DNA of 54,797 nucleotides from Girardia tigrina (taxonomy: Eukaryota): positions 1 to 54,797 of the forward strand of contig MQRK01236849.1 of assembly GCA_001938485.1 (NCBI GenBank), written 5' to 3'. The position numbers and the translations under genes are program-made. The notes under the pieces are model-generated. The model was given only the letters and a program-made list of their open reading frames with translations. It did no database searches and had not been told where the DNA came from. Below, one piece after another: positions 23,801 to 54,587 of the stretch (position 1 is its first letter; each line of letters opens with the position of its first letter).

Positions 23801-26800
23801 ATTTTGTAACTTTTAAATCAAAGTAAATTAAAAATGTGGTTATAATTTTTTTTGGAAAAAGTAATGATAATTTTTTTGGAAATTAAAATAGAATTAAAAA
23901 ATAATTGTAAAACCATTAACTCGACTTAAATAAAAAATGCGATTTTAATTTTTTGAAAAATGTAATTGAGAAACAGATAAATTTAAATGTACCATAAAAT
24001 TGAAAAATTAATCAAAGACGCAACAAAATCTGACAAAATTTTAATTCACTATATTTTTTAAAGAAAATATAGAATTTTAATTTGTAAAAAAATATACTAA
24101 CCATATTTTTATTTATATCTATTTTTATTTATATTGGTTGTGTAAAAAAGAAAGTACAAAAGTTCCTCAAAAATATTTGTTTAAAAAATTCAAATTGTTA
24201 TAGAAATAACTTTTTGGAAATATTTGTTTAAAAAATTCAAATTGTTATAGAAATAACTTTTTGTGTTCATGATAATGTCTTTTATTCAAGAACCCAATAA
24301 TATGCAATAGCAATTTCTTTTTATTTATTTTGCAGGAACACTTGTAATTTATTTACTAATTTATTTCAATAAGCTGGTTCTTGCTTTTCATGGGACTTAT
24401 TGTTAAGAATTATTTTAGTAAATTCTTGTATTTATGTAATTTGATTTTGTTTATTGTTTTTCGGTTGTTCATATTAGGTATATATTATTAGGAAATGTAG
24501 TGCAGTAGTGTTTGTTATATATGTTCTAAAATCAAGCTAGACAATTATAAATAATTAAAATCATACATTTTATTATAATGACATCTTCCTGATTTGTTTG
24601 TGCGCACATATAGTTCAGGAGTTCAGTGAAGGGAGTTCCCAAGACCAGTAAATTTAAGAACAATTAGAAGATATACGATGTTATTGGCATTTTCAATAAC
24701 ATTTTGTGCTATAAATTTTTGTGCTATTTTTGATGGCGATTATGAAAATCATTAAATGTGTAAATCTATGATCTTTGATTTGATTTTAGATTATAAATTG
24801 GCGATCAAAAGGCTTGAATACCAGCATTGCTTTACAGTGGTCCCATCCCGTTGCAGGGGGTCAAGTGACAAAATATACAATCAAATGGGGTAAAGTGTAT
24901 CCAGGACCTAACCAGATCACTGTCCAGTATCCGACGAGTGCCTATGTAATCGATAATTTAGGTAAATTTTATTGTGAAGAAAAATGTATTTATTTGATTC
25001 AGAATTTCGAACTCAATATATGATAAAAATTATTCCAATAAATGACTTTGGTGAAGGCAAAGAACTATTGTTTTCGACTTCTACTGGAAATCCAGATATA
25101 AGTAGATATAGCTTAAAACATTTAACTTGATTTATCTGTTTATAGAAAAAATTCCCATTCCTTTAAATCTGGGTATCAATAAAGTTGGCATGACTTGGGC
25201 CATCATTACATGGGAAGATCCTAGTAACGATTTAAGTAACACCCGAATTTATCAGATACAATATTCTTCCGTGGATAAAGATTTTCAAGTGACAGAATTT
25301 AAAAATTCCACTGAAAATAAAGTAATTCAAATATTTTAATTTTTTGACAAAATAGCTATTTACTATTACAATTGTAGGTCCAGATAACAGGACTACGGTC
25401 ATCAACGTCTTATTCGTTCAGCGTTAGAACTGGAGATATTATCCCCCCCAGAGACGGTGATTATGGGAATAAAGAGTGGGGCTGGAGCGAATGGAGCTTG
25501 AAAGAATCTTTTAGTACCATGGGTGAAAGTAAAAATTACATTTTAATTATATTTTACTCTTATTTAGCAAGTTCATGTGAAATAAATTAAAGTACGAGAA
25601 TATTAATTTTAAGAAACTGCTAATTTAAATTTTGCCAGTTTGAGTTTTAAATGATGATAACATTTAGAATAGATTAAAAAAAGAAATGTTTATAATTTTG
25701 ATCGTAATGAATATTTCTTTACTTTGAAAATTGAGGATTGAGTTGAAATAATTCAAATTTAAAGAAAATGACGTAAATATTTTTGTAAAATTTGGAAACA
25801 AATAACTCCATTCAATTAATTTATTCAATTTCGACATGACGAGAATCAGAATAGAGGCAAGATCGTGACAAATCCAAACCCACTCGATATCGTAAAGACA
25901 CGCATTTCATTTACTTTTACAATTCAGAGTGTTGGGTTCTTGAACAAAATTATAATTAATTAATAATAAATTTTATTTCTAACACAAATAACAAATATTC
26001 AAACAATTTTTTGTCGAGGAACTTTACTTCGTTTTCTTTTTGACCAGATTTTTATATAAAAATATGGAATTATAAATACTGATAAGCTATCTTAAAATTA
26101 AATTTTTTTTTATTCTCTTCATTTTGAAAATTTACATTCCACTATTTTATGCAACTTAATGTAAATTAAAACCAACATAATTTATTGTAGTCATTTTTAC
26201 TAAATTAATGAAAATGATTTTTATTATTTTAGAATTAGTTTAATGTTATTTTCTTTTATTTGTGAAAACGTTTTTAATTAATACAAGATTTTAACGTTTT
26301 ATTTATTATCAATATTTCAATTTAAAAGCCTTTTATTACCCACAATAATTAAATATACGAAAATAAACAATTTTAAATACAATACAAATTTTAAATATAA
26401 TTTAAATACAAAAAATAATTTACAGTATTCATATTTTGATTATTATTACGATACATTAATGATAAAAGTTTTAATTTTAATTTTTTTTACGAAAACTGTT
26501 TAGAATTAAGTATTTGTCAAATCTTTAATTTGTGAAATTTCAAACTGACTTTAAAATTTAAAATTATCTGTTTTTTTTAATTTACATCTCTGGCAACAAA
26601 GTTCATTATTTTATTTTTTAGAATAACTTTTAAAATTAGTACGAACATAATTATCCTTGTCTTTGTATATTTCTTTTAAATCAATTATTTAAAAATCCAT
26701 TATTTCCCAATTAATTTTTTTACTCTACGTTTTTATCTACGTTTTACTCTAAGTTTTTACTCTGCAATTAAAATTTAATTATTTCCGAAAATAACTTTTT

Positions 26801-29800
26801 AAAATTAATTAAAGATATTTTTTAATTATAATTGCTTAGAAAACTTTTGATTTTAAATATTTCCTTATTTTAGAAAGTCTTTATAAAATTAATTTTTTCA
26901 AAATTTTTAAGAGTGATTCTGTCCTTCACACAGATTAATCGCATTTTATCATTCCAGACTTGAAACCGAAAATTTCTAATAATGTACACATATTTAAAAC
27001 TTAATGAATTAATCGAAATTGCACAACAAATTCAAATAAAAATTCAATTAATAAATAAAAGTTAGATAAACAAGACTGGTCCAGAATTAGATAATAAACC
27101 TCAATCGACGTTTTTAATTTGACAAAAGACCATTTCGATCGGGTTTAGCGTGTACAGATAGATATGTATTACAAACTTTGTAAAAAGATCTCTAATACTA
27201 CTTCAGGTCCGTGATGTTACGTTATGCCTGAATAAACAGTTCCCAGAAGTATGAGGCTCTGTAATACGTTCCCCTAAATTATCAAGAGATTGAATAGAAT
27301 TTTAACTTTTAAAACTATCACGGTACACTTTATGGTTAACCATTCCCTTTCTGTTTGGTGTAGCCATGTGGGTTCATATATGTCAAACACAAGATTTAAA
27401 AAATAACATTTGAGATGACAATAAGCACTAAAATGAATAAAAATATTTTTTGAATTACTAATTTTACTTATACCTGTCACTTAAAACCAAAATTTTATAT
27501 ATATATTATGTATATAATTGGTTTACTTATTTATATTTATATAAAATTAAATACAAAAAAGAAAGGGTTTTTAGTTATCATATGCGACCACTTTCTGAAA
27601 TCTCTTAAAGTCCCATACAATAAAAAATGGAACAGGCGAAAATTATTCCATTCACCATATTAATGAAAATTGTCCGATATTGCTTTACGGTACTATACAC
27701 ATTTTAATTAGTGTTCTTGCATCCATCCTCATTTGCCCATTTATCACAGTCTTTTGATTTATTGTTATTAAAAGACATGATAGTTACAAATGTTTACCAA
27801 TTAATGTAACATAATATTAACTAAAATTAATTAGTTCTTCCAAGCATCACAAGAAGAAAGTGACAAGTCTAGGTGTTCGACGTACCATCATCATAAAATT
27901 TGAAGCGTTAATTATTTTTTCGTACTAAAGCATGTAAAAACAGTCTCCAACTGGTTTCCCAAATTAAAAGTTGTCTTAATATTTATTAGTACGATTAACA
28001 TCTGTTCAATCACTCACTTGGCTCTCATTAATCACGGCAGACTATCGTATATGTATTCTCGACCTAATTCACGGTTGTCTTTTATTTAATATATTATTTC
28101 ATAACACATTCGTGTCACTTTATCCTCACATTTCACAGAAATTAAATCACTTTGAAAATGACTTTTCGTTGCATTTATTTATTATTAATAATAATTATGT
28201 CAATATAAGAATAATAATAAGAATAATCTATTTTCCCGTATCAAGCTGTTTATAGATTTTGTGAAAATAGCTTGACATGAACATAAATTTCTCTAAAAAT
28301 TGTGTATCTTTAACTGAAATCGAAATAAGCTCTATTAGATCAATGTCCAAACAGACCTTTCATCTTCGACTGTCGACAAACAAGTTAAGCAAAAGAGACA
28401 TTAATAAAGTATATAAAATTTCACAAACGTATTTTATAACTATTGTTTGTTTATTTACCCATACAAGCTACTTTATGTTACTGAAGGGAGTAAGTGACTC
28501 TCAAAAGTTTGTAAATCACTTATTTCATCGGTGGCGTTTAATGCCAGAAGGTAAAAGTTTATGTTTGGTTATGCTTTATTTTTATTTTATGTAACAATAT
28601 ATATAACATCTTTAACGGTATGGTTAATACATTTTTCTTTTCCTGGAATATAAATAAAATAAAAGTCATTAGGAATAATTAAATAACTTCATATCTCTTC
28701 AGCATTACTAGATAATTCTTAGTTGATTTTCGCATAAGGAGTTTGTATTATTAATAATATTAGTCATGACAGCTTCATTTGTGTTGGTAAATGAATGTCA
28801 CCTAATTGCCTCTTCTTGACACAATCCCCTAATAAGTAGTTCTCCTTTCAAATACTCTTGACTCACCATCCTCATTAATAATAGAAGTTTTATTTTTAAA
28901 TGAAATGCTTGGTGTTTCTTTTCACAGCAGAAACTGTCGTTCATTTATTAGAGAAATATTTTATCGCCTAATAATATAGTACAAATTCTTTGTCTTATTT
29001 AAAATTAAATCAACATTTAAAGCGTTATATCCATTTTTAATCTTTGAAAGTTTTATAATTTTCTGTGAGCCAAAAGAAAGGATTTTAATATAAAATATAA
29101 TGAAAAGTAATAAATATAAAATTAATTTATTTATTTTTACATCTAGAATTATATCATACTTTGATCAGATAAGTCTTCCTTAAGAAAATTATAATTAATG
29201 ATATTTTAATCCATTCAGACCATAATTATCTTTTCAAGCTGCTAATAAGCAAAGAATATCAATAAAATTGAACAAAGTTAAGGGTTTCCATTTATTATGT
29301 GTGTAAAATACTATAATTGTTTAGTCATATTATTCCATATGATATATATACATAAACAATTGTATTTTAGAGCCTTCAAGCAGTCCGCGGGATTTGAAAC
29401 TTGTAACTCTTGGAACTCCTGATGTTCGTAATAATGACGTATATACGAGAGTCCTCCTGAGCTGGTCTTCTCCTAATAAAAACACCAGTATCAGAAGCGA
29501 TGAAATCTCAAGATACACAATTTATTTTACCATGGATCCCAAAGTAGATTTAAGTAATTGGAATACACAAATTCTTCCTAGCAATCAATTCTCCTCGGAA
29601 ATTAGTTTAAATGGCATTCAGAAGATTTACTATTTCAGATTGGGTTGTAAAACGAAAAATTTCGAGTGTCCATTATCTAGAGTCTTGTTATACAAAACCT
29701 CTGATAGTCTGTTTATTATTAACGTATCACTGTTTTGATTAATTAAGCGTTTTCAGCTCAGAAAAAGAATTACGGTTTACTGAGAATTCCAGAAAAATAT

Positions 29801-32800
29801 CAGTACACGGTAAATATCCCTGATACATATTTAAAAGGTGAACCAGTTGCAACACTGGACGAAGAACCCAAAGACCCACTGACTACGAATAAAGAGGCTT
29901 GGTGGATTATGACAAGCAGTGTATTTGGTGCTGTGACTTTTCTAGTGGTTTTGATTATCTGCATATTTATCTGGCATAGAAGACGGAGTCAATCTTCATT
30001 GTAAGCACTATTTACCACATAACCTTTAATAAACGAATACCATTAATTAGCACTGGTTATAAACTTGGTACCAAGTCATCAATCCAGCATATTGGAGGAG
30101 CGGGATTGCTTTTGTCTAATCAGTCACCGGCTCTCTCAAACGGGAAAGTCAGCCCTCATTATGTCAGTAATTTTAGCCAGTCTCTCAAGACCCCTGACCT
30201 GTTTCCGCACCCTGAACCGCATTTCGGAGATCTGGAAAGTGATAGCAGTGAGTAATTCGGTTTCGACAATTTATTTTTGAAAACACTTACGACTAGTAAA
30301 AATAATGTGTAACTTAATTATTTGGTTAAAGTTACTGTTGCGTTTTTAGAAACAAATTCTGACTACATCGATATTTTTCGTTTTATCATCGTTACTAATT
30401 TGCCGAATAATAATTATTATTACTTCTCGTTGAAATTACATTCTCGGTTCAACCAAACACCAAATAGAACTACTAAAATCTTTACTGATTTATTTTATTG
30501 ATACAAAATTATTTTACGAGATGCAAAATTGAAAAGCGCCAATGATCATGTTTGTGAGTTCAAATAAATATCAAGCGGAGGTCGATGGAGCAAATTCGAG
30601 GATAACAAGTAATCCATCAAGTACCATGGGGTCCACAAGCTATGTTGCCTTTCCCCATTAGACGTTTAGGCTTCAACAGTTGTTTCCCATCAAAGATATG
30701 ATTTTAAAATGACTGTTTAAAAAGTTTGCAACTCTTTGCTTACGCAAAACCTAGCTGGATTTACTTTTACAATAGTTTGTTTAATTCTTTTACAAAAAAT
30801 ACAATGAAAGAGATGTTGCCTTAAAAATATATTTGGTCTGTCGTTATATATATATTATTCGTTACATATATAATATTCCTCTAGCCTAAATCGTCATTGA
30901 AAAACGTATTGAATTTATTTGTGCATTTATAATTGTAAGAATCTTAATGACCGTCGAGTACAAATTGCCGCTGAATAGTTGCCCTCGAATTTTAAGACGC
31001 TGGATCTGCCATGGTTATTAAAAGTCAATTGAAACAGATTACAACACTGCTCTTTAGAGTTCCCCCTGAAAGATAACTATGCTTATATGTTTTGTGTGGT
31101 GTAACAAGGTAATAATGCTTCATAGATCCTTTATCTGTGATTTATTGATCAGCTTAGCTTGTTTACTTAGGTCATCGTATAACTCAGTTCAAAATATCAA
31201 CTTATACTTTCTACTGTACAAAATTGTGATCTTGCATCAATAGGAAATTTGTAGTAAATTTAATGAAATGTTTAATTATAATTTCATTTATATTTTTCAT
31301 GCTTTTTATATAGGCAAATCTTTGTGTATCTGAAATATTGGCACTAGACTGTTTGTCCCATTTGACAGCTCATGTGAACACTCGCCGTATTAATATCCTC
31401 ACTTATGATATCTCTACCACATATACATATGTATATATACAATTTTCCAAAAATTGTTTTCATGTGACAAGATTTATTTAATCTGTCAGGCTAATATTCA
31501 CCAAATAGCTACTACGAAATACCTATGTTTCAATTGGATTTATGCAAATTCTTCACGATTAATCTTGTAAATAAACACTGTAAAGAAATTGTTGAGAAAT
31601 TACTTTGACTGAAAAAAAGTCCATTAATTGATAGAAAAATGAATAAAAAGAGTCATTATTCCTCATTAAAGTGCATAAACTGTCTTCAGTCATTGAACCA
31701 AACCTGGCAACATGCTAATAGACTCTTATTTACCCTTTAAGAATAGTTTCGTGTAAACTAATTTTACAGTTTGGAAAAATTTGTAAATTATATCCGTGAG
31801 GAATGTCCTGAATTGTTTGTTGTTTTATATTTTGTAAGTTGTATGTTGATTCGGATTGTGTCTCTCCTACACAGATGTCTGATTGGTATTTTATTTCCAT
31901 CCTACTAATTAAGATAATTTAATTTAAGTATAATTGTCTAAAATAATTTTCAAATGTAATATTTAAATTTTTGAATGTAATTTTAGATTTTATTATATTA
32001 ATTTAATTTGTACTTTTTTTTAAAATGTTTAGATTTGATTTTAACCAATTAAAGAATGTCGAACTTTTTTTTAAAATGTTTAGATTTGATTTTAACCAAT
32101 TAAAGAATGTCGAATAACGAAAGTAGTTTGAATAATTGTTGTAATGTTGTATTGTAATGACAATTCGACTGGTGATATTAATAAATGTTCGAAAAATCAA
32201 ATTGATGTTGTTAATAATATCGATTATTTAATTATTAACGATATATTTAATATCCATATTAGATTATGTTACCAATTGTAGTAAATTTTAAATTACTTTT
32301 AAAAATCACTGATGATGTAAAATACATCGAAACATGTCCGAAATAATAAAAAGTGCTTTAATCAAATTATTTGTAAATGATCATTTTATATTTATACAAT
32401 ATTAGAAGGGTAGTACGAAGAAAAAAACTAGAATTTTGTAAAATAATTTAGCGTGAAGATTTTTTTTTGGATTTATCTTTCGTACTTTCCTCCTTAGAAT
32501 AAATTATTTTGGAACAACTTTCATGTGTAGCATTGTTTAAAATTAATCTATAATGATAAAAATATGGATTAATATTGCTGTCACTCAAGGATTCTTAAGC
32601 AAAACCCCATTGTAAAAAAATAGCAAATTTCATATAGGCACTTTCATTTTGAAATTTGTTTAAGAAATAATTTTCAAAGTTTTTCGATCAATTTTTGGAA
32701 CTTGTTCATCCATTGGATCATGGATCTAATGGGACGAAAATGCGTGTTGATTTGCTCAAATCATTGATTGGAAAGCCAAGATATTCATTTTATATTATGG

Positions 32801-35185
32801 ATTCACAAGCATGGTCATGATACATTTATTATTGTACTATTTTTATTTTATAATCGAAAACGAAAGAATAATATTAGTCGTCATTAATGCATTATTATGT
32901 TTTTATTTTTATGATGATGTTGTGGTCACAAAAAATACATTTTCTTTTAGATCAAGACAATGATTCTCTTCGATTTGCTTCAGTGTCTCAACATCACCTT
33001 GCTTCCACATCAGGCGTCACAAACATGTTCAATCCGACCATACAGAACCATTCTCTAATCAGATCTCATCCCCAAATGGTCTCAAATTATTATTCTGATA
33101 TGCCAACTCATTCAAAGTCAGCGATCAATGCCAGCACCATTCTTAATCCCTTGATCAACAATAGTATTTCTATTCCTATTCAAATTCAGGGTATGTATTC
33201 GCATAGTTGTTTTCATTTCAATCATATGCACATGATTCATGGTATCCGATGCCGTATTATTCATTATTCTTATTAATCATTTTATAATTTTCTACTTTAC
33301 TGGTATTTATCTGTCTTGATACTCTGTACTTTCTATTTTAGACACTAGCTTACAACGGGCTCCACATCAGACTCCAGTATATTCGTACCAGGGTCATCCA
33401 TTCACGCAACACTTGCTCAGTTCTGGTGCTGGTATGCCGATCTGCTCTTCATCTTGTCTTCAACCAATCCACCTGACCCCACAAATGTTAGCAACACCCC
33501 ACGAGGTGCACAGTCCCACTAACTTTTCAAATACACCCAGAGTCAACGCAAGTGAGTTGGCCTCACACACGAGTTCAGGTAATGTTTGTTACTTTTTTAA
33601 TGTCTGTGTTGGAAATTTCTGAATATTCTTGGGTATTATGACGTGTTCCTGTCGACTAACATTATTTCGATATTACTAATATTTGTCTTTTTAAAATTTA
33701 GTTGATTTGGTTTCATGAATTAAAAAAGTACTTCCTCTCAATATAGTAATCAGATGGACTAGTGACACATGTAATTGTTTTCTTGGTGAATATGACTGGT
33801 TAAAGTCAATGATCACGACTATAATATACTTTGAACTAATTATGATCTACTAATCTTATCTCTTCCTGATATCCACCGGCAATAACAGTGGCTTAAATTA
33901 TTATTAAACTGTTACAATTGAAGACAAGGCAGGATATAAGCAACAATTGTTTTATAAAAAATAAGTAAATATCTCGAATAAAATGAGTCTTCAAAAAAAC
34001 GTTTATTAGGAATAAATCAGTGGAAATAATAACAATACTAATCATTCTAACTGCCTGTACGATTGTTCATAATTTGGAAAACAATTCTTTTATTGCATAG
34101 CTCCAGTAAGTGAATTGATGGTTGACTTTCTAATTTCAGAAGACATCAGGCCCGTGATGAATGGATCTAGAGCAAATGAAAGTGAGTTTTGTATTAATTT
34201 AGAAAATACAAAAGAATTAATCTCTTGGATCTCAGATGACATGTATCCCTACTACGGCAGTGCAGGCAACAGCACCAGCAAGTCCCAAAAGACAGCTGCA
34301 TCCAGCAAGTCTCACGCGGAAACTTTACGGAATCCTGACGTAATCAAATCCGGCATTGATTCGAGTCAATCAGAAAGTGAAGTGGCGGTGAGTAGCATTA
34401 TTATATCTATTGTTATTATTGCAATTATTTCCCTCGGCTTAATTATAATGATGGCATTTATTTTCATTCCAAATATTATTAATTTAATTTTAACATAATA
34501 TATTATAAATTATTTTGATTAAATTTCATTGCATATTTATCAAAACAAATTTTCTCACAACATTAATGCATGTAAACAACAATGTATAATTAATATTAAT
34601 ACCCTTATTTTTAAAAAATTAATAACAAAGAAAGATTAAAAAAGCAATGTTATAATCGACTGAACAAAAAACTTTTCCTGCCGAGACAATGTGAATAAAA
34701 ATGAGTCCCATGAGCCTCGTGAACCGAATGAAACAATGAGAGATTAGAATTTGCTGGACAGGCGAAATTGTGTTTGCACAATGATTGACTTTAAAAAGTT
34801 TGTTATGAAGGAGAGTCGATTTGAAGATATGGCCGGTGGGAAGCGTTTTAATATTATTATCTCAAATTATTTATAAGAATATCACGACATAGGTGAATAA
34901 ATAAATATTTAATATTATTATTCAAAATTGGAAAAGTGTGGTGAAAAATATTATTTAAATTTTTAAATGAATAAATAAATTGGCCATTACTAACAAATAA
35001 ATTCTTGGAAAAATAAAATATATAATTTTAAATATTTCACTTTATAAATATTATAACATTAAAAACACAAAAACAATTAAATCAATATTCAAATATTTTA
35101 CAAATGATAATTTTCGATGATGAAGTATGAAATCTTGAAACGTTCTTAAAACAGCTTTAACTAAATTATTTATTCATTATTATAA

Positions 35186-35242
<57 letters not shown>

Positions 35243-35292
35243 NNNNNNNNNNNNNNNNNNNNNNNNNNNNNNNNNNNNNNNNNNNNNNNNNN

Positions 35293-35346
<54 letters not shown>

Positions 35347-36696
35347 GCTTTCAAAATAAAACATTGTATTATTAAAATATTATGATAATAATATTATTAT
35401 TACATAATAAAATACAACTTTGCACAAATTAATTATTAATTGATGGGTTTGCAAAGTCTTATTGATAATTCATACACAGAAATGAATCGAAGGTTCTGAA
35501 AAACAGAAAACTCATTTATTGAAAAAGAAGAAATTCTATTTTTACAATGTGACCACTTATCGAGAACCTTACTCGAATGCTCGAGTAAGCATTGACTATG
35601 AATGCTCATTATACCAGGTTTTCAGATGACATTTTTTACACCTAAAATTTACTCCCTTGACAATTAAATTTATAAATCAAATTAGTTTGCAATCCACAAT
35701 TCGTTTTCAGTTTATCTGAGAGGAAGCTTTGAACGTTGGATGTCATTGAACTACTTGTCATTACCTATATTCTTGCAAATACTCTACTTAAATGTTTAGA
35801 ATTCACTACAGAATCGAAAATAAATAACACATTTCCTTTTCTAAGATGAAGATCACAAAAGTCATCAAAATACTGTATTCTGAAGGATTATTACTATTAT
35901 ATATGAATTCAAATGTATATGTACACATTTTCATAATTTGATGTCATTCCTAAATTGGTATATTTAGTACTTCTAGTCGCCTAACATCTTCATAAAGGGA
36001 AATAATTAATTCCTGAATGGATTCATTGGCAGTAATTATGTTTCTTTCTTCATTTCCAATGTATAATAGTAACTAAAGACGTAATATTTCATCGCACTTA
36101 TTATTAATGTCGTCTCAGCATTAATTGTACTAACCTAAAACCTAACCTTCACTCTAAAATCCTAAACATAAACCTAAAAGTAATTATATTTCAATAATTG
36201 ATAAATAATTGCAAGTAAATTAATTTTTCATCAAAATTTGCAATCGATTTCTTTTCTTTTTCTCCCAATTTTTGAGAACCTTGTATGGAATAGAAGGGTA
36301 TTGTAATGGATTGTCATGGTAGCAATGTTATCAAAATTATTGTGTGTGAATCATACAGAATATACACCCCTGGATCTTCTCATACATTGCGTACTCTCCA
36401 GGGGAGTATATTTGATATGAATACCAAACTTAATTTTCAATTTTTATCTTAATTTGTCATGTATCTCAAATCGAAATATTTCAACTATCCTCAACATCTA
36501 CTTTATTCAAATATAACACTTATCTTTGATTGTCCTAATTATTAAATGATTGTTACACATTTGCCCTAATTGTTCATTATTGCAACTGTTATTGCAGAAG
36601 GCCTTCAGCACGGAGGAGCTGAGCCAAGAAATGGCCAATCTGGAGGGGCTGATGAAGGATCTGAATGCGATAACTCAGAAAGAATTTGAATGTTAA
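2617..36696 (+). CDS. DCC/fra: DCC/frazzled/neogenin-family netrin receptor, 5'-partial. Exons: 2617-2812, 7245-7423, 18456-18523, 18589-18682, 18774-18993, 19078-19243, 19294-19559, 24790-24961, 25003-25101, 25146-25321, 25378-25528, 29371-29706, 29757-30000, 30051-30247, 32951-33190, 33342-33578, 34140-34181, 34236-34387, 36598-36696
   Basis: All junctions are GT-AG and join in one frame. Ig motifs (DGLYTCQA; C..W..DEGIFQC), five FNIII repeats, a TM helix followed by HRRR, P1-like SLKTPDLFPHPE, and terminal STEELSQEMANLEGLMKDLNAITQKEFEC*, nearly identical to the frazzled P3 as I recall it. A few donors (19559, 25101, 25528, 29706) were chosen on phase and are less certain. Confidence 0.93.
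3461..3626. mobile_element. Foldback/MITE-like long inverted repeat
   Basis: ctttcaacacga...tgtaatattatagcccaaaatattttt...tattttgact / agtcaaaata...aaaaatattttgggctataatattaca...tcgtgttgaaag. Confidence 0.75.
4074..5500 (-). mobile_element. pogo/Tigger-like transposase pseudogene
   Basis: Fragments: LKVSEGWL..IK*RH (CENP-B-type HTH), IYNADETGF, FKGEKCSGGKASK, LLVIGKSEKPRCFKNV, LLPPNTT..MDQGVIQN, TISNCFRKAG; TA-CAGT end at 4072-4077. Confidence 0.85.
5515..6760 (-). mobile_element. mariner element (Hsmar1/cecropia-like); transposase ORF 5591-6637 spanning an N gap
   Basis: WVPHDL, IVTCDEKWILYDN, HPPYSPDLLPTN (third catalytic D appears as N), SRWQKCID; TIR ta-ttaggtttgtcgaaaaataatggtggtttt at 5513; other TIR not found. 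Confidence 0.93.
7245..7423 (+). CDS. DCC/fra: DCC exon: last Ig domain (absent from ORF track)
   Basis: ttccag|ACA...GA|gtaagt; TEILLKCRINDIGSDNKIIWRKNGELMLGNSYIYQNDGYLRISKFLKSDEGIFQCLADN. Confidence 0.9.
7640..8600 (-). mobile_element. 5'-truncated RTE-like non-LTR retrotransposon RT remnant
   Basis: VRQG..SPTLFNLFLERI, GISCGGTRITN, EEEIRNRIGIA, LKAFKMKCYRRMPKITWKEKKTN, KKWTDDLKEW, with frameshifts. Confidence 0.85.
13829..15589 (-). mobile_element. rosa/DD41D-related IS630-Tc1-mariner element (DD38D spacing), nested in the Tc3-like TIR
   Basis: TIRs cagtgcgttcacaaagtaactgtgcacct / aggtgcacagtgactttctgaacgcactg with TA on both sides; KFRETGSV..RSGRP, FFSDE, LSGYVSSQNSRVW, FQQDGA...WPPRSPDLSVLDFYLWG. 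Confidence 0.92.
14531..14863. mobile_element. ~330-bp AT-rich insertion interrupting the DD38D transposase between FSDE and LSGYV
   Basis: Homology stops and resumes either side; weak subterminal inverted similarity (ctattgac..tcaatt / aattgactcaatag). Confidence 0.6.
17460..18120. repeat. AT-rich dispersed repeat, copy 1 (copy 2 at 37945-38520)
   Basis: Shared collinear blocks ttgtaagta..tttatg..actttcattatt, aaaaatttatttaaaatt.tttcataactt.tattaaaat, gaaatgcaaatttaaatt.a.ccctcata. Confidence 0.8.
18456..19559 (+). CDS. DCC/fra: DCC exon cluster (5 exons): end of Ig, first two FNIII domains, long linker
   Basis: SPVKNLRVKAGSFGTLNISW...LVPDSFYKIFVYSVNGSGKS; APNASPTNIRVSKIGSIGAIITWSPPEASQMNGELIGYRL...DLTAGTKYTVQIQASTRGGRGPLS; introns of 50-91 nt. 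Confidence 0.88.
20616..21883 (+). mobile_element. ITmD37E (DD37E) transposon, full-length but frameshifted
   Basis: TIRs aggactgagttcgaaaaatattgctaac / gttagttatatttttcgcactcagtcct with TA on both sides; IMDYET, QLPGQEFY, DLASCHY-(37 aa spacing)-CPELRPIERYW. Confidence 0.9.
22457..22600 (-). mobile_element. Possible Penelope-like RT fragment
   Basis: ..ISLEKTIQKMPFFDVII loosely resembles the PLE RT motif (FT.E.E....LPFLDV). Confidence 0.25.
22755..23497 (+). mobile_element. Ty3/Gypsy integrase remnant with PPT; 3' LTR starts TG at 23498
   Basis: IIDHFSKY, FGAPKEIHFDCGKSF, SPYHHNINGIIERQFRTI, RFEGPYEIIEQ; purine tract aaaaacgggtggga then TGTTGGG. Confidence 0.88.
24168..24263. repeat. Two-copy ~48-bp tandem duplication
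   Basis: aaatatttgtttaaaaaattcaaattgttatagaaataactttttg twice. Confidence 0.85.
24790..25528 (+). CDS. DCC/fra: DCC exon cluster (4 exons): FNIII domains equivalent to DCC FN4 and FN5
   Basis: TSIALQWSHP...YTIKWG...IDNLEFRTQYMIKIIPINDFGEG; IPLNLGINKVGMTWAIITWED...ITGLRSSTSYSFSVRT...WSEWSL; introns of 41, 44 and 56 nt. Confidence 0.88.
29371..30247 (+). CDS. DCC/fra: DCC exon cluster (3 exons): FN6-equivalent, TM helix, juxtamembrane/P1
   Basis: PSSSPRDLKL...YTIYFTMDPKVDLSNW...YYFRL; WWIMTSSVFGAVTFLVVLIICIFIWHRRR; SLKTPDLFPHPE. Confidence 0.9.
32012..32114. repeat. Two-copy ~51-bp tandem duplication
   Basis: tttttttaaaatgtttagatttgattttaaccaattaaagaatgtcgaa twice. Confidence 0.85.
32292..32348 (+). 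ncRNA. Minimal type I hammerhead ribozyme-like motif
   Basis: CTGATGA-tgtaaaatacatc-GAAA-CATG-TC, palindromic stem III (ACATGT) and GUC cleavage triplet; stem I imperfect. Confidence 0.6.
32951..34387 (+). CDS. DCC/fra: DCC cytoplasmic exons (32951-33190, 33342-33578, 34140-34181, 34236-34387), Ser/Pro/His-rich
   Basis: Higher GC than flanks, strong splice sites (gtatgt, gtaatg, gtgagt), phases 1-1-1-1-0 link the P1 exon to the P3 exon. Confidence 0.8.
35189..35342. repeat. (TA)n microsatellite containing an N gap
   Basis: Direct observation. Confidence 0.95.
35626..35844. repeat. ~220-bp dispersed repeat, copy 1 (copy 2 at 41959-42185)
   Basis: atgaca.tttttacacctaaaatttactc...caatccacaattcgttttcagttt..tgagaggaagctttgaac...ctacagaatcgaaaataaataacacatttccttttcta shared. 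Confidence 0.9.
36598..36696 (+). CDS. DCC/fra: DCC terminal exon, P3 motif
   Basis: ttgcag|AAG...TGT TAA; KAFSTEELSQEMANLEGLMKDLNAITQKEFEC*. Confidence 0.95.
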   Translation, partial: KAFSTEELSQEMANLEGLMKDLNAITQKEFEC

Positions 36697-46265: not shown

Positions 46266-46872
46266 TTGATTGGATGATGGACTGAGGGCATCCGGGGCCA
46301 TACAGATGCCCTTTGATCATAAGAAATACAACTGATAGTTATGAGTCGCTCAAGCGTCAGTAGGTTACCAAATTATTATGAACACTTATTTTTTTAGGTA
46401 TTTTAAACTTTCAATGATTTTTTTGAGAGAATGAATAGGTTTGGATTTAATTTTTTTTGATGAATTCTACGACAGTATACTTGTAAATGTTCTTGACAAT
46501 TGAAAAAAATTGTATCAGACTGAATCGTCTGTCTGAATAATGAATTTTATCAATGTGACCTAAATTTTGGTATAAAATATTTATTATAAAAATTGAATAA
46601 ACATTTTTAGGAAACATTCTAACAACTTTTAGTTAAATGAACTTAATTTTTTTAGTAATACCATATTTTAAATTTAAATTGTAAATATTTAATTACTAAC
46701 ATGCTATATTTGTATTTTATAATATTATCAAAATTTTTTTGCAGTATGGGCAAGTGTTCTGATACATCTCCGTTAAAATTGAGAGAAATCGAAACACTTT
46801 TATTAAACACCAAACATAGACAAAGAGAAATAGCGAGACTTACAGGCTTTTCAAAATCATTAATTAGTAATA

Positions 46873-49306
46873 TGTTACGATGGGAAAAGTCTGTGCCTGT
46901 AATGAAATTAAAAATATACAAACAAAAATGAACGAATAAAAAACCTTTGAAGAAGCCCCACCGTCGTAGTGTCACTGGTCTCCTTCCGGGTCCGGGGATC
47001 GTGTTTGTTGCCTTTGTGTTTGTGAGGCCCTGGAATTAAACAATGAAATGAAATAAGTTAAAAACTTTTTTACAATTTCATCATGCCTTACCTTATCTGG
47101 AATAAATTGTTTAGGTGCGTGTGATCGCGGGCCTGAAATAGATAGGCGTAGGTCACAAAATATTTAAATAATAAATAACCAACTTTCAACGAAGCCACGC
47201 ATTGATACACCGATCCGGAGGAGTGCGTGGACATTGGAGTGTTGGGTTGAGTTGCCGGTGAAATGATTGCTCAGTTGAGCTTATCTTTGGTAGGCTTTTG
47301 AAAAAAACCCGATACACTCTGGTACTGTAGAGAATTACTCTACAATAAATAATAGAGTACAACCACAAACACACACACAAAATTTGAACAAAGTTTTTAA
47401 CACATGCCTTTTTATACTCTTTATAACTGCACAACTTTTCATATTTATTTATTTTCTACTAGCTCTGTTGGTATTATTATTCTACAAGTGTTGGCATTTT
47501 TGAAAAATTATTATTAAGTATGTAGTCTTACGTTTCATTATTAATAATTATATTTTATTTTTTTAATTTAACCCTATATAGTATTATTGTTTATAACGTT
47601 TAAATACAATATTTTATACTAGATTTTATTGTTGTTTTATTTATTAATAAAATTTGATAGATTGTTCCGTAACATGCTTTACTATTATTATTTTATTATG
47701 ATTATACTAATGTTTTTTCTTTTACTCTGGGCCAGGGTTATAGTGTCGACTCGTAGGTGTGGTAATGAATACCCAGTAATGCGAAGGAGACTTAAGGATG
47801 AGAGGACAAATAAGTTCGGGAGACACAGTAGACAAGTGTTAAGCAGTATAAAGGAAGATGAAGAGGTCGATGAGGTGTAATGTGGGTATAGAAGCCGTGT
47901 AAATAAGATAAAACAGTAAAGTAGCTTTATATATAAAAGGATTTAATAGATCCAGGCAAAGCTAATTAGAGTCGGTGATGTAAATAGATAGGTCTATCAC
48001 AATATATATTTAAATGCAGTGTGGTGAGGAGGTCGACAGAGTGGGAGAGAATCATATAAATTTTGCATATAAACCCCTGAACATACATGGAATCCCCTCT
48101 CCTTTATTCTATAGAAACCTTAATTGGCTTTTTAATATGATTTTATATTTATTAGTTTTTCACTGTTAGATAAAAATCAATTATTGGATGTAATGTATTA
48201 ATATGGATATATTAACACAAATAAGTAGGCAGTGATATCTTCATCGATGTTTGGTTGTAATCTGTTTAACATAAAAAATGATGACATAAAAGTATCCACT
48301 GGTATTTACATATAGAGTTCAAATTTAATTCATGTTTTTAGGGAATAAAAGGAAATGAAAATATTTGATCTACAAAATTGTTTCAACAGATTTATGTATG
48401 TTATAAGATGTACATATATAAATTAACATTAAAGTTGAGGTAAAATATTCTATTAAAGATATTCTATTAAAAATTGAGATAAATCTTTCGCCCTAATATC
48501 AAAAAATTGAAAAAGCTTACGTTCCAACGTTTACTAAAGTATCCTTGTTTCAATTCTTATTAAGAACACAAGATATTGTTTGGCCATAGTGAAAATACTG
48601 TAAATCTTTTCTTTTCTTTAATCATAGAGTTGATCATGTTTTAAATGTTATTTCATAAATAATATTCATTTTAAATAATATATATTATTAAATGCAAATA
48701 TGCTTTACGCATTAAAATATTTGAAATATGAATTTAGAACTTGATGAGAGAAGATTTAGTAATAATAGTTATAAACATTTTTGAGGCTTATGATTTTTAA
48801 TTTTAAATTTAGATAATGCAAACAAATAAATAAATTTCTCTCAATAAATTCTAATTATAAACTCAGTCGAGGTCTTATTCCATTGATTGATAAATGCACG
48901 GCTATATTCTGTATATATTTTGAGAAAGAATTAATAACAATGCATGTGTGTGAATAACTGAAGAACCTTTTGGAGGTGACACGGGTCGTTCCAAAGAATT
49001 CACAGGCACGCGGGCGATCGTCGTCTACTTCCTCAGGGCTCTCTTCGTTCAAGTGTTTGAGAAGCGATGATAATGTAATCGTAAAATAAGTCATGTCCAA
49101 ACATATCAAACCTTCCATATACTAAGGCTACCGGTTGGGCAATACTCGTCCCCTCGAAGCGCGTACAACTAGTTGATGTGCGTGGAGGAGACGCGTCCGT
49201 TCGCCCTAAATTAGAAGATATTGAATATCTTGAGTTATCGTTTAACTCGGAAAGCGACTGGGGGTTCGCGCATGCAGAAATGTTGCGAGATAAGAGAACC
49301 GCGACA
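46873..49306 (-). mobile_element. 2434-bp solo LTR-like insertion with 4-bp TSD
   Basis: aata|TGTTACG...CGCGACA|aata; removal restores the transposase frame (..LISN-IKVKIDQG..); no coding homology recognised inside. Confidence 0.8.
47407..47416 (-). promoter_or_regulatory. Candidate TATA box of the solo LTR
   Basis: Minus-strand TATAAAAAGG upstream of two GT-AG introns. Confidence 0.45.
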
Positions 49307-50562
49307 AATATTAAGGTAAAGATCGATCAAGGCAAGCATCTGGAGGTAGATTGAGTGGGAAAATGCCGCAGGAAAATTATTATGATGATAAACAACGACG
49401 GAATTAAAGTTTCCAAAAGGACACTTCAGAGATGTTTGGTTAAAGAAAGCCTCACGGATTGGCGACCTACTAAAAACCAAACCTGATTCAGGTAATGAAA
49501 AAAAGAGACTTCAATGGGCTAAACATCAGAAGCATATGACTAATGAGGACTAGAGTCTTATAAGTAATATTTTTTTATTGAGAAATGATATTTTTTATGG
49601 TATCATTTTACAAATCTGCTTCTCCAACCAGTCAACTTTTAAAATTTTGGTAAACAAATTTTGCTTCGTTCGACGGCGCCCAGGAGAATATCTCCTCAAT
49701 GAATGCTTTATAGAAAAGGTCAAACATCCCATAAGAATCCTGGTGGGGATTGTGATCTCATACAGGGGTTTGAGATCGCTGAACATTGTATAAGGGACGA
49801 TGAGAAAGGACCAATACAATGGAGTGTTGGAAATTCATATTCCTCAGTTGGAAGAATGGTACTCAAATAAGGAAGATTATATCTTTATGCAAGATTCACC
49901 ACCTTATCACAAAGCCAAAAATGTCACTGCATTTCTCGATAAAAATGTTAAAGTCTTACTCTAGCCTGGGAATTCACCGGATATGAACACATTCAACACC
50001 TGTTTGAAATCACTAAAAGGGTAGTAGTTTAACAAGTCATAACAACCAAGTAATAAAAGCCATAGACAGAGTGTGGCATCATACCCCATATCTCATAGAT
50101 ACTACTAAAGTCTGCATATAAAGTATGCGACTACACATAGAAGCCGTAATTTGAGAAAAGGACAGTACTACAAAATAATAATTTTTTTAATAAAATTGTA
50201 TCAATCGTCTTCCTGTAACTTTTCATACATTATTTGTAATATTTTTTATTTGATATTTGGCTTTCGTATTTCTAAGAAAAATTTTTGCTAAATGAAAAAA
50301 CTAAGACTTAAAACGCTTTGATTACTCAAAAAATTCATTCCAAGTTAAAGTTAAAAAACAAATAAGTGTCCGTAATAATTTGGCTATATATATATATATA
50401 TACACAAAATTTTTATTAAAAATAAAAATAAATTTTCATAATACATAGTTGTCTTAAATTAATTTTTTTCACAAAATTCAATAAACACAATGCTTTTGTT
50501 TTAATGCATCAAATCGAATAAAACATAACGGCATTTATTCGAATTTTCGTATTTCATTGGCG

Positions 50563-53500
50563 ATGACCGAAAACAATTTGTCCTTTGTTCTTAAAGAAAA
50601 ACATTCGTTTTATTTTGTAAGTACACATTTCAATTTTTCATTTAAATGAGGTTCGATTGTGTCCACTTGGTCAAGGAGCAGAGAGAGATACCGCGTGAGC
50701 TCGGAGAATACGGTGAGTGAGGCGATGTGTGTACCCGATTGACGCGCGCTTTCCATAGATGTGCTGCTCAAGGTGCTCAGTGTTGGCATCTGCGGCTCGG
50801 NNNNNNNNNNNNNNNNNNNNNNNNNNNNNNNNNNNNNNNNNNNNNNNNNNGTGACGAGTCCGATCGTGCTGGGACACGAGACGTCCGCGCTCGTCGTCAG
50901 GTGCGGAGACAAGGTGACACGGCTGAAGGAAGGTAAACCATCCGCTGGAGATCGGGGCGCCTTGTCCTCGATCGGCGCTCTTGAATCACTGATACTTATT
51001 TGTAAAATCGCGCGTATCAGCCGCGGTTGAAGCGTGCTAAAGAAGCATCTTGATACCAACTAATACACCTTAAATTCCATTTAATCCAATAACAATTTAA
51101 GATAAAATTATTGACAAATAATAATAATAAAGCTTGTAAACATATTTATACATATTTCGGAAATTCTTCTTCTGTCATCAGCAATTATATTTGTTAGTTA
51201 CTATTTTAATGTTGCTTTTTATTAAGGTTATTTTACAAGAGAACAAGTTATTTATTTATTTATTTAAGATATTGGAAAATAATGGCTGCGAGGGAAAATT
51301 TTGAATGTTGTAAGTTTGTTGTTTGTATGCTGTTTAGATTGGTGACTCTCCTACTCAGATGGGATTGATATGTTTATTGATTGATTGTTTGAATCTAATG
51401 ATATTAATTTAATGATATTAATTTTAAGTACTAATTAATTAAAGTTTGATAATTATGAATTTTAATAATATTTTCAGTAAGCGATTTTAACTTATTAAAT
51501 TTAATATATTTTAAAAATTAATGTTTATTTAAAAACTTACATAAAGCCTTTTCATCCAATAAAATTTTGAGAAATTAAAAATTAATAATAAAAAATTTCC
51601 CATTCATTGTTTTTTTAGATTTGAATATATAAACAAAAACTATATCTCGAGACGTTAAAACTACATCTCGTCTTAAAGGTATTTCTATGAACTTTTGAAA
51701 GTTCATAAAATTTGGCCGTTTGAAATTATGACTAAGATTATAATCTTTGTGATAATTATCACAAATATGACCCTTTTTATTAGGATTTTATAAAAAAAGA
51801 AGTAAGAAATTCATCATCATCTATCGTAGGTTATGTATTATATAAAAAATCTAATAAAGTTTCATAAATAGTGGTCCTTTAAGAATATCATTCATTTTAC
51901 CATCTTCATTATTTAAAAAGACTTGACCATTTTACCTTATCAAATTTACAGACATTTATATTTTTCTTAGATAAAGTTTTATAATCACTAAATCCTAATT
52001 ATTTTGTTTAGCATTTTCTAACAAAATCTGGGGTGTTTTTATTCAAAACATACTTAAAATATCCGAAATTAAACTATTAAAATATCAAATATTGGATTAG
52101 TAATATCCATGCATTGCTTTAATCTTCGATTGAAATTTTAATTTATCGAATTTTGATTTAATTGAATGTTTAGGTTCATATTTTGTTATTCCGATTTCAT
52201 TCTTAGATATATTAACATTACTTAAATTCATAATGGAATTTTTAAAGTCAAATTTATCAACTCGAAATAATTCTCTTACATTATTCCTTAACTAACGAAG
52301 ACATCAATACGACATAAGAAAATAATCCCATTATCGTCTTAAAAATATCGAAGAACATCAATGGAGAACAAAGGATATTAGGAGCAATGTTTTCAAAATT
52401 ATAACAATTTCCGAATCTAAGAATATATTTAATATACAAAATATAGAAATAAAACATTTTAATTGACTTAATCATCCTTTCTCGGGTTGTAGATTCTCGT
52501 TGTGATATGCTCGTGTTGGTCAATATATTTTAAACATAAAACTAATATTCCTATGAAAATGATTACAGCATTACAAATCCTTTTCAATCCGTCTTTCAAA
52601 TGTCAAACTTAGTAGCAAATACGTTTTACAGTACAGTATTAATGTAAATGATACCAATATAAACGAACAATGTATTTGTTACTTTATGTTTTATAGTTCA
52701 AGTAATTTTATCACTATTATCGTATGTGTACCCATTTTATAATGGCACTATTTTCTTTCTAATATACTAAACGTACTTTTGATTGAATTCGATAGATAAT
52801 CGAATGCATAATTAATAAAGTCTAATGGTTTGATAATGATATGCTCATGAAAAGTGAAATCGAAGAAGTGGTTACTAAAACCTTCCAGACTTGATTTAGC
52901 AGATCAGTGTTTTTAATGACTATCGTAATTCATGTTAAAAGTACACTTATTTAATTAAAATGCAAATTGGTTGTTAATTTGAAGTTAGTAACATTCTTAG
53001 GAGAATTACAAAAAAACAGATGCAAATAACACCATTTGATAGTTACTTAAAATATTTATGAGTATTATCATTATTGAAGTTGATAAAAGATTTACGAGGG
53101 AAACACAAAAGTTCGTAGAGAAAGTCAAATCATTTTGGCTGAATATGTATGTGTTACAATTACTTGCTGCCTTGTTTGTGTTGTTTTGTACATGTCAACC
53201 AATTAGAAATAGGATAAACATGATTAGAAGTCTATATGTATGAATATAGTTGGCTATTTTGGGAACAATTCATTTTCTTCTATTTCAGAATAAATGAAAG
53301 ACGCGGTGTAGACATAACGTGCTATCGTTTATTTTCTATGGAAGGAACACATCGCCAGCCAACAATACCAACGTTTCTCCCATGTATTTGGTGATGCAGT
53401 CATGTGCCAAAGTTCTGTATAAAAATGTGTACAAAAATTCGAGAATGGTCGAAAATCACTGGAGGATTACGCAAAGATTGATCATTCAACAAACCTATCA

Positions 53501-54335
53501 ACTGTGAAAAATTGAAGAGCTATTGAGGATATCATTGACGTTGATCGATGTGTCACTGTTGATGAGATTGTAGTCCTTATCAATATGTCTCCAAGTTCTG
53601 TACACCACGTCATGACCACAGAGGTCAAAATAAAGAAACTCTGCGAGATGGGTGTCACGATTTTTTATTGATGTCATGAAGTATAATCGCCTGACAGCTT
53701 ACCAACAACTGCTAAAAATAGTAGACAACATTGGTGAGGGGGTTTAGGCAAAAATCTTTACAGTTGATGAGACCTGGCTGCCGTTTTACCTTCCAGAGAC
53801 TATGGAACAATCGAAGCAAGGGTGCCACCATAAAGAAAAGCCCCTGTCAATATGAGCATTCAGAATCTCAAAAAGCGATTGGAGAAGTACGTGCGCATAC
53901 AAGGTGACTTTATCAAGAAATTTAACGATGATTCTGATGCTGAGTATTATGTTAATATATCACTTGGTTTCATTTTTATATTTCCACAAACTCTTGTGAT
54001 GCCCTGTCGTATTTAATTCGTTAATGATGGACCAAGAACATTATAAGAAAACAGGTTATTTGGTGAGTTTTAATAATTCTTTTAGATATGTGTCATAATA
54101 ATTTTATGAATATCTTAATTTTATCTTCATATTTGTTTTGTTAGTTATCATGAGATGATATAACATTATATACAGGCGACAGAGTAGCTATTGAACCTGG
54201 AGTGCCATGTCGGAGATGTGATTTGTGTAATTCTGGTAGATACAACCTTTGTGAAAAAGTTGTATTTCATGCCACACCTCCTTACGATGGTACACTGTGT
54301 CAATATATCACTCATCCGGAGGATTTTTGTCACAA
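50563..54335 (+). CDS. SORD: Sorbitol dehydrogenase (Zn-dependent MDR), 3'-partial. Exons 50563-50616, 50676-50712, 50759-50932, 54176-54335
   Basis: MTENNLSFVLK...|EQREIPRELGEY|DVLLKVLSVGICGS[N gap]VTSPIVLGHETSALVVRCGDKVTRLKE|GDRVAIEPGVPCRRCDLCNSGRYNLCEKVVFHATPPYDGTLCQYITHPEDFCHK; catalytic (GICGS, GHE) and structural (4 Cys) Zn ligands; GT-AG junctions in phase. Confidence 0.93.
53290..54011 (+). mobile_element. Internally deleted mariner in SORD intron 3
   Basis: RAIVYFLWKE, KFENGRKSLED, ILTVDETWLPFYLPETMEQSKQG joined directly to IQNLKKRLEKYVRIQGDFIKK; TIR-like end aaactcttgtgatgccctgtcg-ta. Confidence 0.8.
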
Positions 54336-54587
54336 GTACTTTGATTAATAAATTATAAATTTAGTAATTTTTATTAATCTTCCTGCGAATTCTAAATTCT
54401 AATAATTCTAATTCTCATTTTATTATCATCTTATACATTGATTTGTAAATACAACCCTTTTGTGAAACATTAAAATAGACCTATTGATCTCTTAAGTTTC
54501 TATATAAACTCCTTGATCGTTACATAACTGAGAAATATTTAAATTGATGAAAAGAAAACTTATCTTGACAAAAGAAATCACTAAATC

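What the first reader, a model, noticed from the sequence alone, without database searches (positions are those of the whole stretch)
46873..49306. Unusually long (2.4 kb) solo LTR with its own promoter and two spliceosomal introns
Seen: the insertion has TG...CA imperfect inverted ends and an AATA duplication, and splits a Minos-like transposase that rejoins in frame. On the minus strand it holds TATAAAAAGG (47416-47407), then intron-like gttggt...tttcag (47183-47133, 51 nt), a 41-nt exon, and gtaagg...ttccag (47091-47030, 62 nt). These match the host short-intron size class. The far end (48960-49306) is GC/CpG-rich. Knowledge: 4-bp TSDs fit some Gypsy lineages; multi-kb LTRs mark giant elements such as planarian Burro and plant Ogre. 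Inference: this is the recombination scar of a possibly undescribed giant retroelement with a spliced 5' leader inside the LTR, and it may still drive a spliced ncRNA about 1.3 kb upstream of SORD.
Basis: partly seen in the sequence, partly recalled or inferred. Interest (0 to 1): 0.7.

Follow-up and report, generated by a model that had tools for sequence, protein, structure and literature searches.

The report
Burro-like solo LTR making antisense RNA
This 2.4-kb insertion is a leftover end-repeat, likely of a giant virus-like jumping gene; it carries small exons that are spliced in RNA on the strand likely opposite to the element's own genes, and that RNA likely runs on backwards across a neighbouring nerve-guidance gene.

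Summary
The element is real: exact ends, a 4-bp duplication and many dispersed copies. It is best read as a solo LTR of a Burro-like Gypsy clan. Related LTRs end in the same GC-rich block, followed by a primer site complementary to host tRNA-Pro, short accessory ORFs and gag; other copies continue into a Bcl-2-fold domain and a viral fusion protein.

The 51-nt intron and the start site were not shown. The RNA leaves the LTR and most likely splices to exons 12 and 38 kb away, antisense to a DCC/neogenin-like gene; no joint to SORD was seen. Antisense short-intron motifs recur in other clan LTRs (13 versus 1 sense).

No paired LTRs, polypurine tract or pol gene were found, so size and Burro membership stay open. 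Antisense LTR promoters are known; a clan-wide multi-intron cassette inside U3 was not found in my searches. The scan had not noted this element before.

The parts
46873..49306 (+). Solo LTR, 2434 bp; sense orientation + (U3 left, U5 right)
   Evidence: termini and copies; orientation from primer-site junctions of related LTRs
46869..46872 (.). Left target-site duplication AATA
   Evidence: empty-site joint
49307..49310 (.). Right target-site duplication AATA
47407..47416 (-). Candidate antisense TATA box (TATAAAAAGG); use as promoter inferred, not shown
   Evidence: TATAAAA 97% identical in about 11 aligned copies against about 87% background
47133..47183 (-). Predicted intron 1 (51 nt); no spliced joint seen
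   Evidence: sequence; GT in 8 of 9 and AG in 8 of 9 aligned copies; an RNA contig ends 7 nt inside it
47092..47132 (-). 41-nt antisense exon
   Evidence: in spliced contig X3 record 17
47030..47091 (-). Intron 2 (62 nt), spliced
   Evidence: joint with GT..AG ends in runs X3 and X4
46945..47029 (-). 85-nt antisense exon, no ATG
46897..46944 (-). Intron 3 (48 nt, GTTTTT..TTACAG), spliced; new here
   Evidence: joint in runs X1, X3, X4
46844..46896 (-). 53-nt exon: last 24 nt of the LTR plus 29 nt of the Tc1 flank, followed by donor GTAAGT (46843-46838)
   Evidence: contig pieces 46844-46895 with 0 differences; donor
34377..34406 (-). Inferred downstream exon start (AG acceptor; 12.4-kb intron), inside an open frame of the DCC/neogenin-like gene on the other strand
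   Evidence: deconvolution of a two-contig loose end
8885..8914 (-). Inferred alternative downstream exon start (TTTTTACAG acceptor; 37.9-kb intron)
47730..47940 (+). Purine-rich tract and TATATATAAAAGG: candidate sense promoter of the LTR (inferred)
   Evidence: 91% and 94% identity among copies
48960..49306 (+). GC/CpG-rich U5-type end, the block shared across the clan and followed by the tRNA-Pro primer site in internal-junction copies
46368..50383 (+). Decayed Tc1-type DNA transposon that the LTR interrupts
   Evidence: inverted arms 46368-46423 / 50328-50383; Pfam
19278..36693 (+). Part of a DCC/neogenin-like host gene that the antisense RNA would overlap (5' end not mapped)
   Evidence: fn3 E 3.6e-4 at 19278-19679; Neogenin_C E 3.6e-12 at 36598-36693
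50563..54345 (+). SORD-like host gene, 1.26 kb right of the LTR (start codon read by eye); not joined to the LTR in the RNA contigs
   Evidence: ADH_N E 2.5e-9; joint 50932>54176

Best explanation
The insertion is a solo LTR, likely left by recombination between the two LTRs of a large Burro-like Gypsy element, whose U3 end carries small exons that are spliced on the strand likely antisense to the element and are likely driven by an antisense promoter in the LTR. Shown: termini, 4-bp duplication, dispersed copies, splicing of two introns in RNA from this locus. Inferred: + is the sense strand, because relatives carry the tRNA-Pro primer site after the GC-rich end; antisense placement lets the introns survive retrotransposition, since they cannot be spliced out of the sense genomic RNA; in a full element the 3' LTR would send this spliced leader back into the internal region (an accessory gene or a regulatory RNA, not seen); here it reads into the Tc1 flank, meets a GTAAGT donor and is likely joined to exons 12 and 38 kb away, making a low-level noncoding RNA antisense to a DCC/neogenin-like gene.
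For: 4-bp duplications in 14 loci with both ends. Pattern CGACA-N1-5-TGGGGGCTC: 53 hits vs 1 control; 13 of the 30 loci cut out match the window's right end by BLAST, 22 of 30 look like it by eye. The primer site is the complement of host tRNA-Pro genes ending ATCCCGGCTGAGCC. The nearest junction copy, L037, has a 2.4-kb LTR 82% identical over the first 202 nt and 70% over the last 432 nt, then the primer site (one change) and two short ORFs also found between primer site and gag in L281 (tblastx E 4e-34). That gag (Retrotrans_gag E 8e-5, zf-CCHC E 4e-7 in its 92%-identical relative) continues in contig C181156 into a region whose model matches Bcl-2 proteins (top 24 of 50 rows, best Z 9.6, rmsd 3.5, 124 aligned) and a fusion glycoprotein (PF24664 E 8e-24): the Burro order in PMC6431247. 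RNA: joints at introns 2 and 3, contig crossing the LTR/flank border without differences; runs are RNA by the SORD joint. Loose end at 46844 resolves to one pair of places among 12 candidates, both at AG acceptors, predicted agreement 0.617 vs 0.62 reported, 0 of 500 shuffles give a pair. Short-intron motifs in the first 700 nt of 17 clan LTRs: 13 antisense, 1 sense; shuffled 3.0+-1.8, max 9 of 200.
Against: No copy of the window's own subfamily (79-92% identical) was seen next to a primer site or a polypurine tract; the link to gag-env runs through relatives whose LTR middles do not align. No paired LTRs, 3' junction or linked pol gene of the clan was found. Splice dinucleotides are kept in 83-94% of copy positions, no better than background, and intron-3 donors vary among copies. 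The intron rule was tuned on the window's introns, missed 7 of 17 LTRs and the 17 are partly related. RNA evidence is Logan contigs of one sample, unstranded, depth 4-20 against 2944 for SORD; one contig runs 7 nt into intron 1 unspliced. The long-range joints rest on two contigs of one run and on my assumption of how the tool breaks ties. The Bcl-2 model has pLDDT 56 and Foldseek E 0.011.
Confidence: 0.75

Rival explanations
1. Same solo LTR, but the spliced minus-strand RNA starts further right (divergent transcription from the SORD promoter, or within U5) and only borrows the LTR's splice sites.
For: Low-depth contigs cover 47686-48227 and 48776-50211 almost up to the SORD promoter, strand unknown; no start site was mapped.
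Against: The TATA box 230 nt before the first predicted donor is the best-kept element among copies (97%) and similar antisense introns recur in other clan LTRs that have no such neighbour; no joint links the right-hand cover to the small exons.
Confidence: 0.25
2. One reading: the minus strand is the element's sense strand and the introns form a spliced 5' leader in R/U5.
For: TATA box, exons and outward reading direction look like an LTR promoter; splicing is real.
Against: The primer site lies after the opposite end; none of the CGTAACA ends inspected is followed by a shared primer site or internal sequence; introns in sense R/U5 would tend to be lost when spliced RNA is copied (inference).
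Confidence: 0.04
3. A non-autonomous DNA transposon (Ginger-like, TGT..ACA ends, 4-bp duplication) rather than an LTR.
For: Nearly all termini inspected are outer ends with unique flanks (29 loci, apart from three duplicate pairs); lengths vary from 1.0 to 6.7 kb with deletions and nested insertions.
Against: No terminal inverted repeat beyond about 7 imperfect bases; homologous ends are followed by a tRNA primer site and gag.
Confidence: 0.04
4. The antisense splicing is noise: cryptic sites in AT-rich decayed repeat used at trace level, with no role for element or host.
For: Depth under 1% of SORD; no excess conservation of splice sites; no ATG in two of three exons; the distal exons are cryptic-looking.
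Against: Sites are ancestral in the subfamily and strand-biased across the clan, which chance sites would not be. This rival can still hold for the host-side effect on the DCC-like gene.
Confidence: 0.2

Closest known systems
Burro / GYPSM1 giant Gypsy elements of dugesiid planarians (PMC6431247 section 7, read whole)
   Same: Gag with CCHC knuckles, then a long polyprotein with a ubiquitin-like candidate, a Bcl-2-like domain and a mononegavirus-type fusion protein; accessory ORFs upstream; multi-kb LTR
   Different: No pol, total length or MATH/BIR/ankyrin link shown here; the review says nothing on LTR termini, primer site or antisense introns; no Burro sequence was in hand for comparison
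Antisense promoters in retroviral and ERV LTRs: HTLV-1 HBZ, HERV-K and IAP solo LTRs (PMC10186651 abstract and section 6)
   Same: LTR works in both directions, also as a solo LTR, and makes chimeric transcripts with host sequence
   Different: Here two (perhaps three) complete 48-62-nt introns and micro-exons lie wholly inside U3, in an invertebrate Gypsy clan
Antisense ORFs between pol and the 3' LTR: maize Grande gene23, RIRE2, Retand; micropia antisense RNAs (PMC7264820 passages)
   Same: Large Gypsy elements with an antisense transcription unit at the 3' end; a model for what this leader would serve
   Different: Their promoters are described upstream of the ORF or unspecified; no antisense ORF was found for this clan
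L1 antisense promoter chimeric transcripts (search listing only)
   Same: Retroelement antisense promoter spliced into distant host sequence
   Different: Non-LTR element, mammalian

Membership tests
Solo LTR | TG..CA termini with short imperfect inverted ends and 4-6-bp target duplication | tested here: met
Solo LTR | Dispersed copies with the same two termini and no internal genes | tested here: met
   longest stop-to-stop frame inside the element under 100 aa
Solo LTR | Homologous LTR end followed by a tRNA primer-binding site in other copies | tested here: met
   in relatives (70-82% at the ends); not seen in the own subfamily
Solo LTR | Polypurine tract before a 3' LTR; paired LTRs around gag-pol | tested here: inconclusive
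   none found in 21 LTR starts or 16 GGGG-preceded hits; assembly is in 255,254 pieces
Burro-like Gypsy | Retrotrans_gag followed by CCHC zinc knuckles | tested here: met
   (clan copies L281, L309)
Burro-like Gypsy | Bcl-2-like domain in the polyprotein | tested here: met
   (24 top rows Bcl-2 family, Z up to 9.6); low-confidence model; no Pfam or PDB sequence hit
Burro-like Gypsy | Mononegavirus-type fusion (env) domain between gag/Bcl-2 and pol | tested here: inconclusive
   env present right after the Bcl-2 region (PF24664 E 8e-24; E 5e-25); pol downstream not reached
Burro-like Gypsy | Ubiquitin/SUMO-like domain before Bcl-2 | tested here: inconclusive
   Pfam ubiquitin E 0.16; model pLDDT 44
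Burro-like Gypsy | MATH, BIR, ankyrin domains or an upstream accessory ORF | tested here: inconclusive
   two short ORF families without Pfam match lie between primer site and gag; a MATH ORF lies near a clan LTR in L049 but is not shown to belong to it
Burro-like Gypsy | Giant size (internal region up to 25 kb, total over 30 kb) | not testable with these tools
   no whole copy; 3.7 kb primer site to gag in one copy and over 7 kb gag to mid-env in another
Burro-like Gypsy | Reverse-transcriptase phylogeny with Burro1-4 | not testable with these tools
   no linked RT and no Burro sequence returned
Ginger-type DNA transposon (features recalled) | Terminal inverted repeats of tens to hundreds of bases | tested here: not met

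The most novel reading that the evidence does not exclude
Burro-like LTRs of this genome are portable two-way promoters with a built-in, multi-intron antisense leader in U3; hundreds of solo copies seed spliced antisense long noncoding RNAs across host genes, and this copy regulates a DCC/neogenin guidance receptor from 10-38 kb away.
Probability: 0.25. Interest if true: 0.72.

Novelty: new variant of a known kind. Interest (0 to 1): 0.5.

Why it matters
Introns wholly inside an LTR are hard to keep if they lie in the sense strand; finding them antisense, spliced and recurring across a clan points to a dedicated antisense transcription unit in Burro-like elements, which PMC6431247 does not describe. 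It gives a concrete lead on how these virus-like giants express accessory genes or regulate themselves, and a way by which several hundred solo LTRs could create antisense RNAs on host genes in what is probably a regenerating flatworm (host inferred, not tested). If the RNA is only trace noise, the finding reduces to an ordinary solo LTR of a known kind of element.

Tried and rejected
1) Flank comparison of close copies for a shared internal region: none; solved only by the primer-site patterns. 2) A 9.6-kb 'long member' with a DEDDh exonuclease (L042/L060) proved to be a different Gypsy family (G1, own 1.2-1.3-kb LTR and primer site) nested in a clan LTR. 3) Pattern TTYKCAATCGTAACA: most of the 30 loci were one unrelated repeat with both sides shared; dropped. 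4) Polypurine-tract search: 231 vs 188 control; of 16 fetched, six form one family that looks like the purine-rich middle of clan LTRs, the rest other repeats. 5) No RNA joint from the LTR to SORD and none at intron 1; 47249-47569 has no cover, which is no evidence either way. No listed run is on record as RNA. 6) Homology searches for the clan polyprotein gave nothing or one unnamed 95% match; the representative-protein search was still queued when I stopped, no result. 7) Grohme et al. 2018 is not held, so its LTR descriptions and supplements, and Repbase entries, are unseen and may already describe these features. Passages of PMC8532177, PMC11410931, PMC13238120 and bioRxiv 10.64898/2025.12.11.693146 gave nothing on Burro LTR structure. 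Searches for LTR-internal antisense introns (listings only) showed no such case. 8) Scan look-ups by sequence and words were empty.

Full report
Observation. The insertion is 2434 bp, starts TGTTACG, ends CGCGACA and has AATA on both sides. It lies in a decayed Tc1-type transposon (inverted arms 46368-46423 and 50328-50383; helix-turn-helix hits on both sides). RNA contigs of uninterrupted Tc1 copies skip 2438 nt at this place in 4 of 4 runs, which fixes the boundaries independently.

Copies. The window comes from a 1.43-Gb, AT-rich genome in 255,254 pieces. A search with the element scored 40 of 1129 candidates and gave 81 matches, with two more full-length copies at 84-85%. Fourteen loci hold both termini (about 12 independent insertions; two pairs share flanks); all have 4-bp duplications with 0 or 1 mismatch and no fixed target sequence, and 5- or 6-bp readings fail. 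The right-hand end belongs to a wider clan: TGTCGCGTTCCC occurs 341 times against 8 for the control. The flanks of the close copies and of 29 further ends were unique apart from duplicates, so at that stage a non-autonomous DNA transposon was still possible.

Orientation and parent element. Asking for TGG after the GC-rich end gave 36 hits; 3 of the 27 new loci showed TGGGGGCTC... The pattern CGACA-N1-5-TGGGGGCTC then gave 53 hits against 1 control. Of the 30 loci cut out, 13 match the window's right end by BLAST and 22 resemble it by eye; 8 are other families; some are duplicates. The site TGGGGGCTCAGCCGGGAT is the complement of the 3' end of host tRNA-Pro genes listed (anticodon read by eye). 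So the GC-rich end is U5 and the sense strand of the LTR is the window's + strand. The closest junction copy, L037, has a 2.4-kb LTR that is 82% identical to ours over the first 202 nt and 70% over the last 432 nt, with an unalignable middle. It is followed by the primer site with one change and by two short ORFs that also stand between primer site and gag in L281 (tblastx E 4e-34). A gag 92% identical to that of L281 has Retrotrans_gag (E 8e-5) and CCHC (E 4e-7) matches and continues, with breaks, for more than 7 kb. Near its end lie a region whose low-confidence model (pLDDT 56) matches only Bcl-2-family structures in the top 24 rows (best Z 9.6, rmsd 3.5, 124 aligned; Foldseek E 0.011) and a Monjiviricetes-type fusion glycoprotein (E 8e-24). 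A ubiquitin-like stretch before them is weak (E 0.16). This is the domain order given for Burro in PMC6431247 (section 7 read whole). Not found: a pol gene linked to the clan, a 3' LTR with its polypurine tract, or a paired-LTR copy. From two different copies, 3.7 kb (primer site to gag) and over 7 kb (gag to mid-env) precede pol, so a total near or above 20 kb is likely; this is inference. The host is probably a dugesiid flatworm (inferred from these elements, base composition and intron size; an earlier scan note on this genome says the same; not tested).

RNA. Four coded runs of one sample hold part of the element. They are Logan contigs, unstranded, and not on record as RNA, but they carry the SORD joint 50932>54176 with GT..AG ends (depth 2944 in X1), so they contain spliced RNA. 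The 62-nt intron is skipped in X3 and X4. Both have GT..AG ends on the minus strand. One 186-nt contig spans both joints and 29 nt of the flank with one difference in all, so it comes from this locus. It ends 7 nt inside the predicted 51-nt intron, and no joint at that intron was listed. No start site can be read from contigs. No joint links the LTR to SORD.

Where the RNA goes. All three spliced contigs stop at 46844, directly before GTAAGT on the minus strand. In X3 two contigs continue there with other letters, reported as one 30-letter consensus with agreement 0.62. Assuming that ties go to the alphabetically first letter, 12 places in the window are compatible and exactly one pair reproduces the consensus: 8885-8914 and 34377-34406. 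The pair predicts agreement 0.617, both places follow an AG on the minus strand, and 0 of 500 shuffled consensuses give any pair. I read this as alternative splicing over 12.4 and 37.9 kb. The + strand there holds a DCC/neogenin-like gene (fn3 E 3.6e-4; Neogenin_C E 3.6e-12), and 34406 falls in an open frame between those two exons.

Is the cassette part of the element's design? In close copies the splice dinucleotides are mostly present (83-94%), which makes them ancestral, but this equals background (about 87%); only the two TATA-like boxes stand out (97% and 94%; alignment). In the first 700 nt of 17 clan LTR starts a short-intron rule finds 13 antisense and 1 sense match, against 3.0+-1.8 (maximum 9 in 200) after local shuffling. 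The rule was shaped on the window's introns, 7 of 17 LTRs had no match, and the starts fall into a few related groups, so this is supportive, not conclusive.

Mechanism. Shown: insertion, copies, primer site after the homologous end, Burro-like coding in relatives, splicing of two introns. Inferred: the element integrated into the Tc1 copy and lost its interior by LTR-LTR recombination; U3 holds divergent promoters (minus at 47416, plus at about 47928); antisense introns persist because the copied genomic RNA is the other strand; in a whole element the leader would read from the 3' LTR into the internal region, as antisense units do in HTLV-1 (PMC10186651, abstract and section 6) and in Grande, RIRE2 and micropia (PMC7264820 passages); as a solo LTR it reads into host DNA and picks up distant acceptors. 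The main rival is that the RNA starts nearer SORD, since low-depth contigs cover most of 47686-50211.

Comparison and verdict. It works like known two-way LTR promoters and belongs with good but incomplete evidence to the Burro-like Gypsy elements; size, pol and phylogeny were not testable. A multi-intron antisense cassette inside U3 did not appear in my searches (listings only), but the primary Burro paper and Repbase were not available. New variant of a known kind; interest 0.5.

Noticed in passing
G000:C240086 (L110, L111); also L042, L115, L121, L123: A second large Gypsy family (about 17.5 kb, LTR-like repeats 16.3 kb apart, different primer site) with a fusion-type env before pol, a weak Bcl-2 hit, and after integrase a 998-aa ORF with ankyrin-like repeats and a 749-aa ORF with a DEDDh exonuclease; the exonuclease has 152 matches among 150 of 2678 candidates scored.
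   Followed up: partly
L042:7598 and L296:about 1128: The second family's LTR end lies inside the U5 region of a clan LTR in two different contigs; chance or target preference, two cases only.
   Followed up: no
L110:5403-6290 (minus): Arginine-methyltransferase-like open frame (PRMT_C E 2e-18) lying antisense inside the second family's polyprotein region, next to a gap.
   Followed up: no
L037:6030-8050, L281:2469-4568, L270, L273: Short, conserved, apparently intron-separated ORFs between primer site and gag; no convincing Pfam match for the two tested.
   Followed up: partly
L248 junction: Sequence after the LTR end matches host tRNA-Pro for about 30 nt, beyond the usual 18.
   Followed up: no
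L185, L186: Two small contigs hold head-to-head LTR ends with identical flanks 354 nt apart; inverted duplication or assembly artefact.
   Followed up: no
L285 (G000:C247446): Two primer-site junctions 2417 nt apart with near-identical downstream sequence: tandem duplication of a short deleted element.
   Followed up: no
window 51036-51723: Very high summed contig depth in the SORD intron (about 18,000 in X1), probably a common repeat or small RNA.
   Followed up: no
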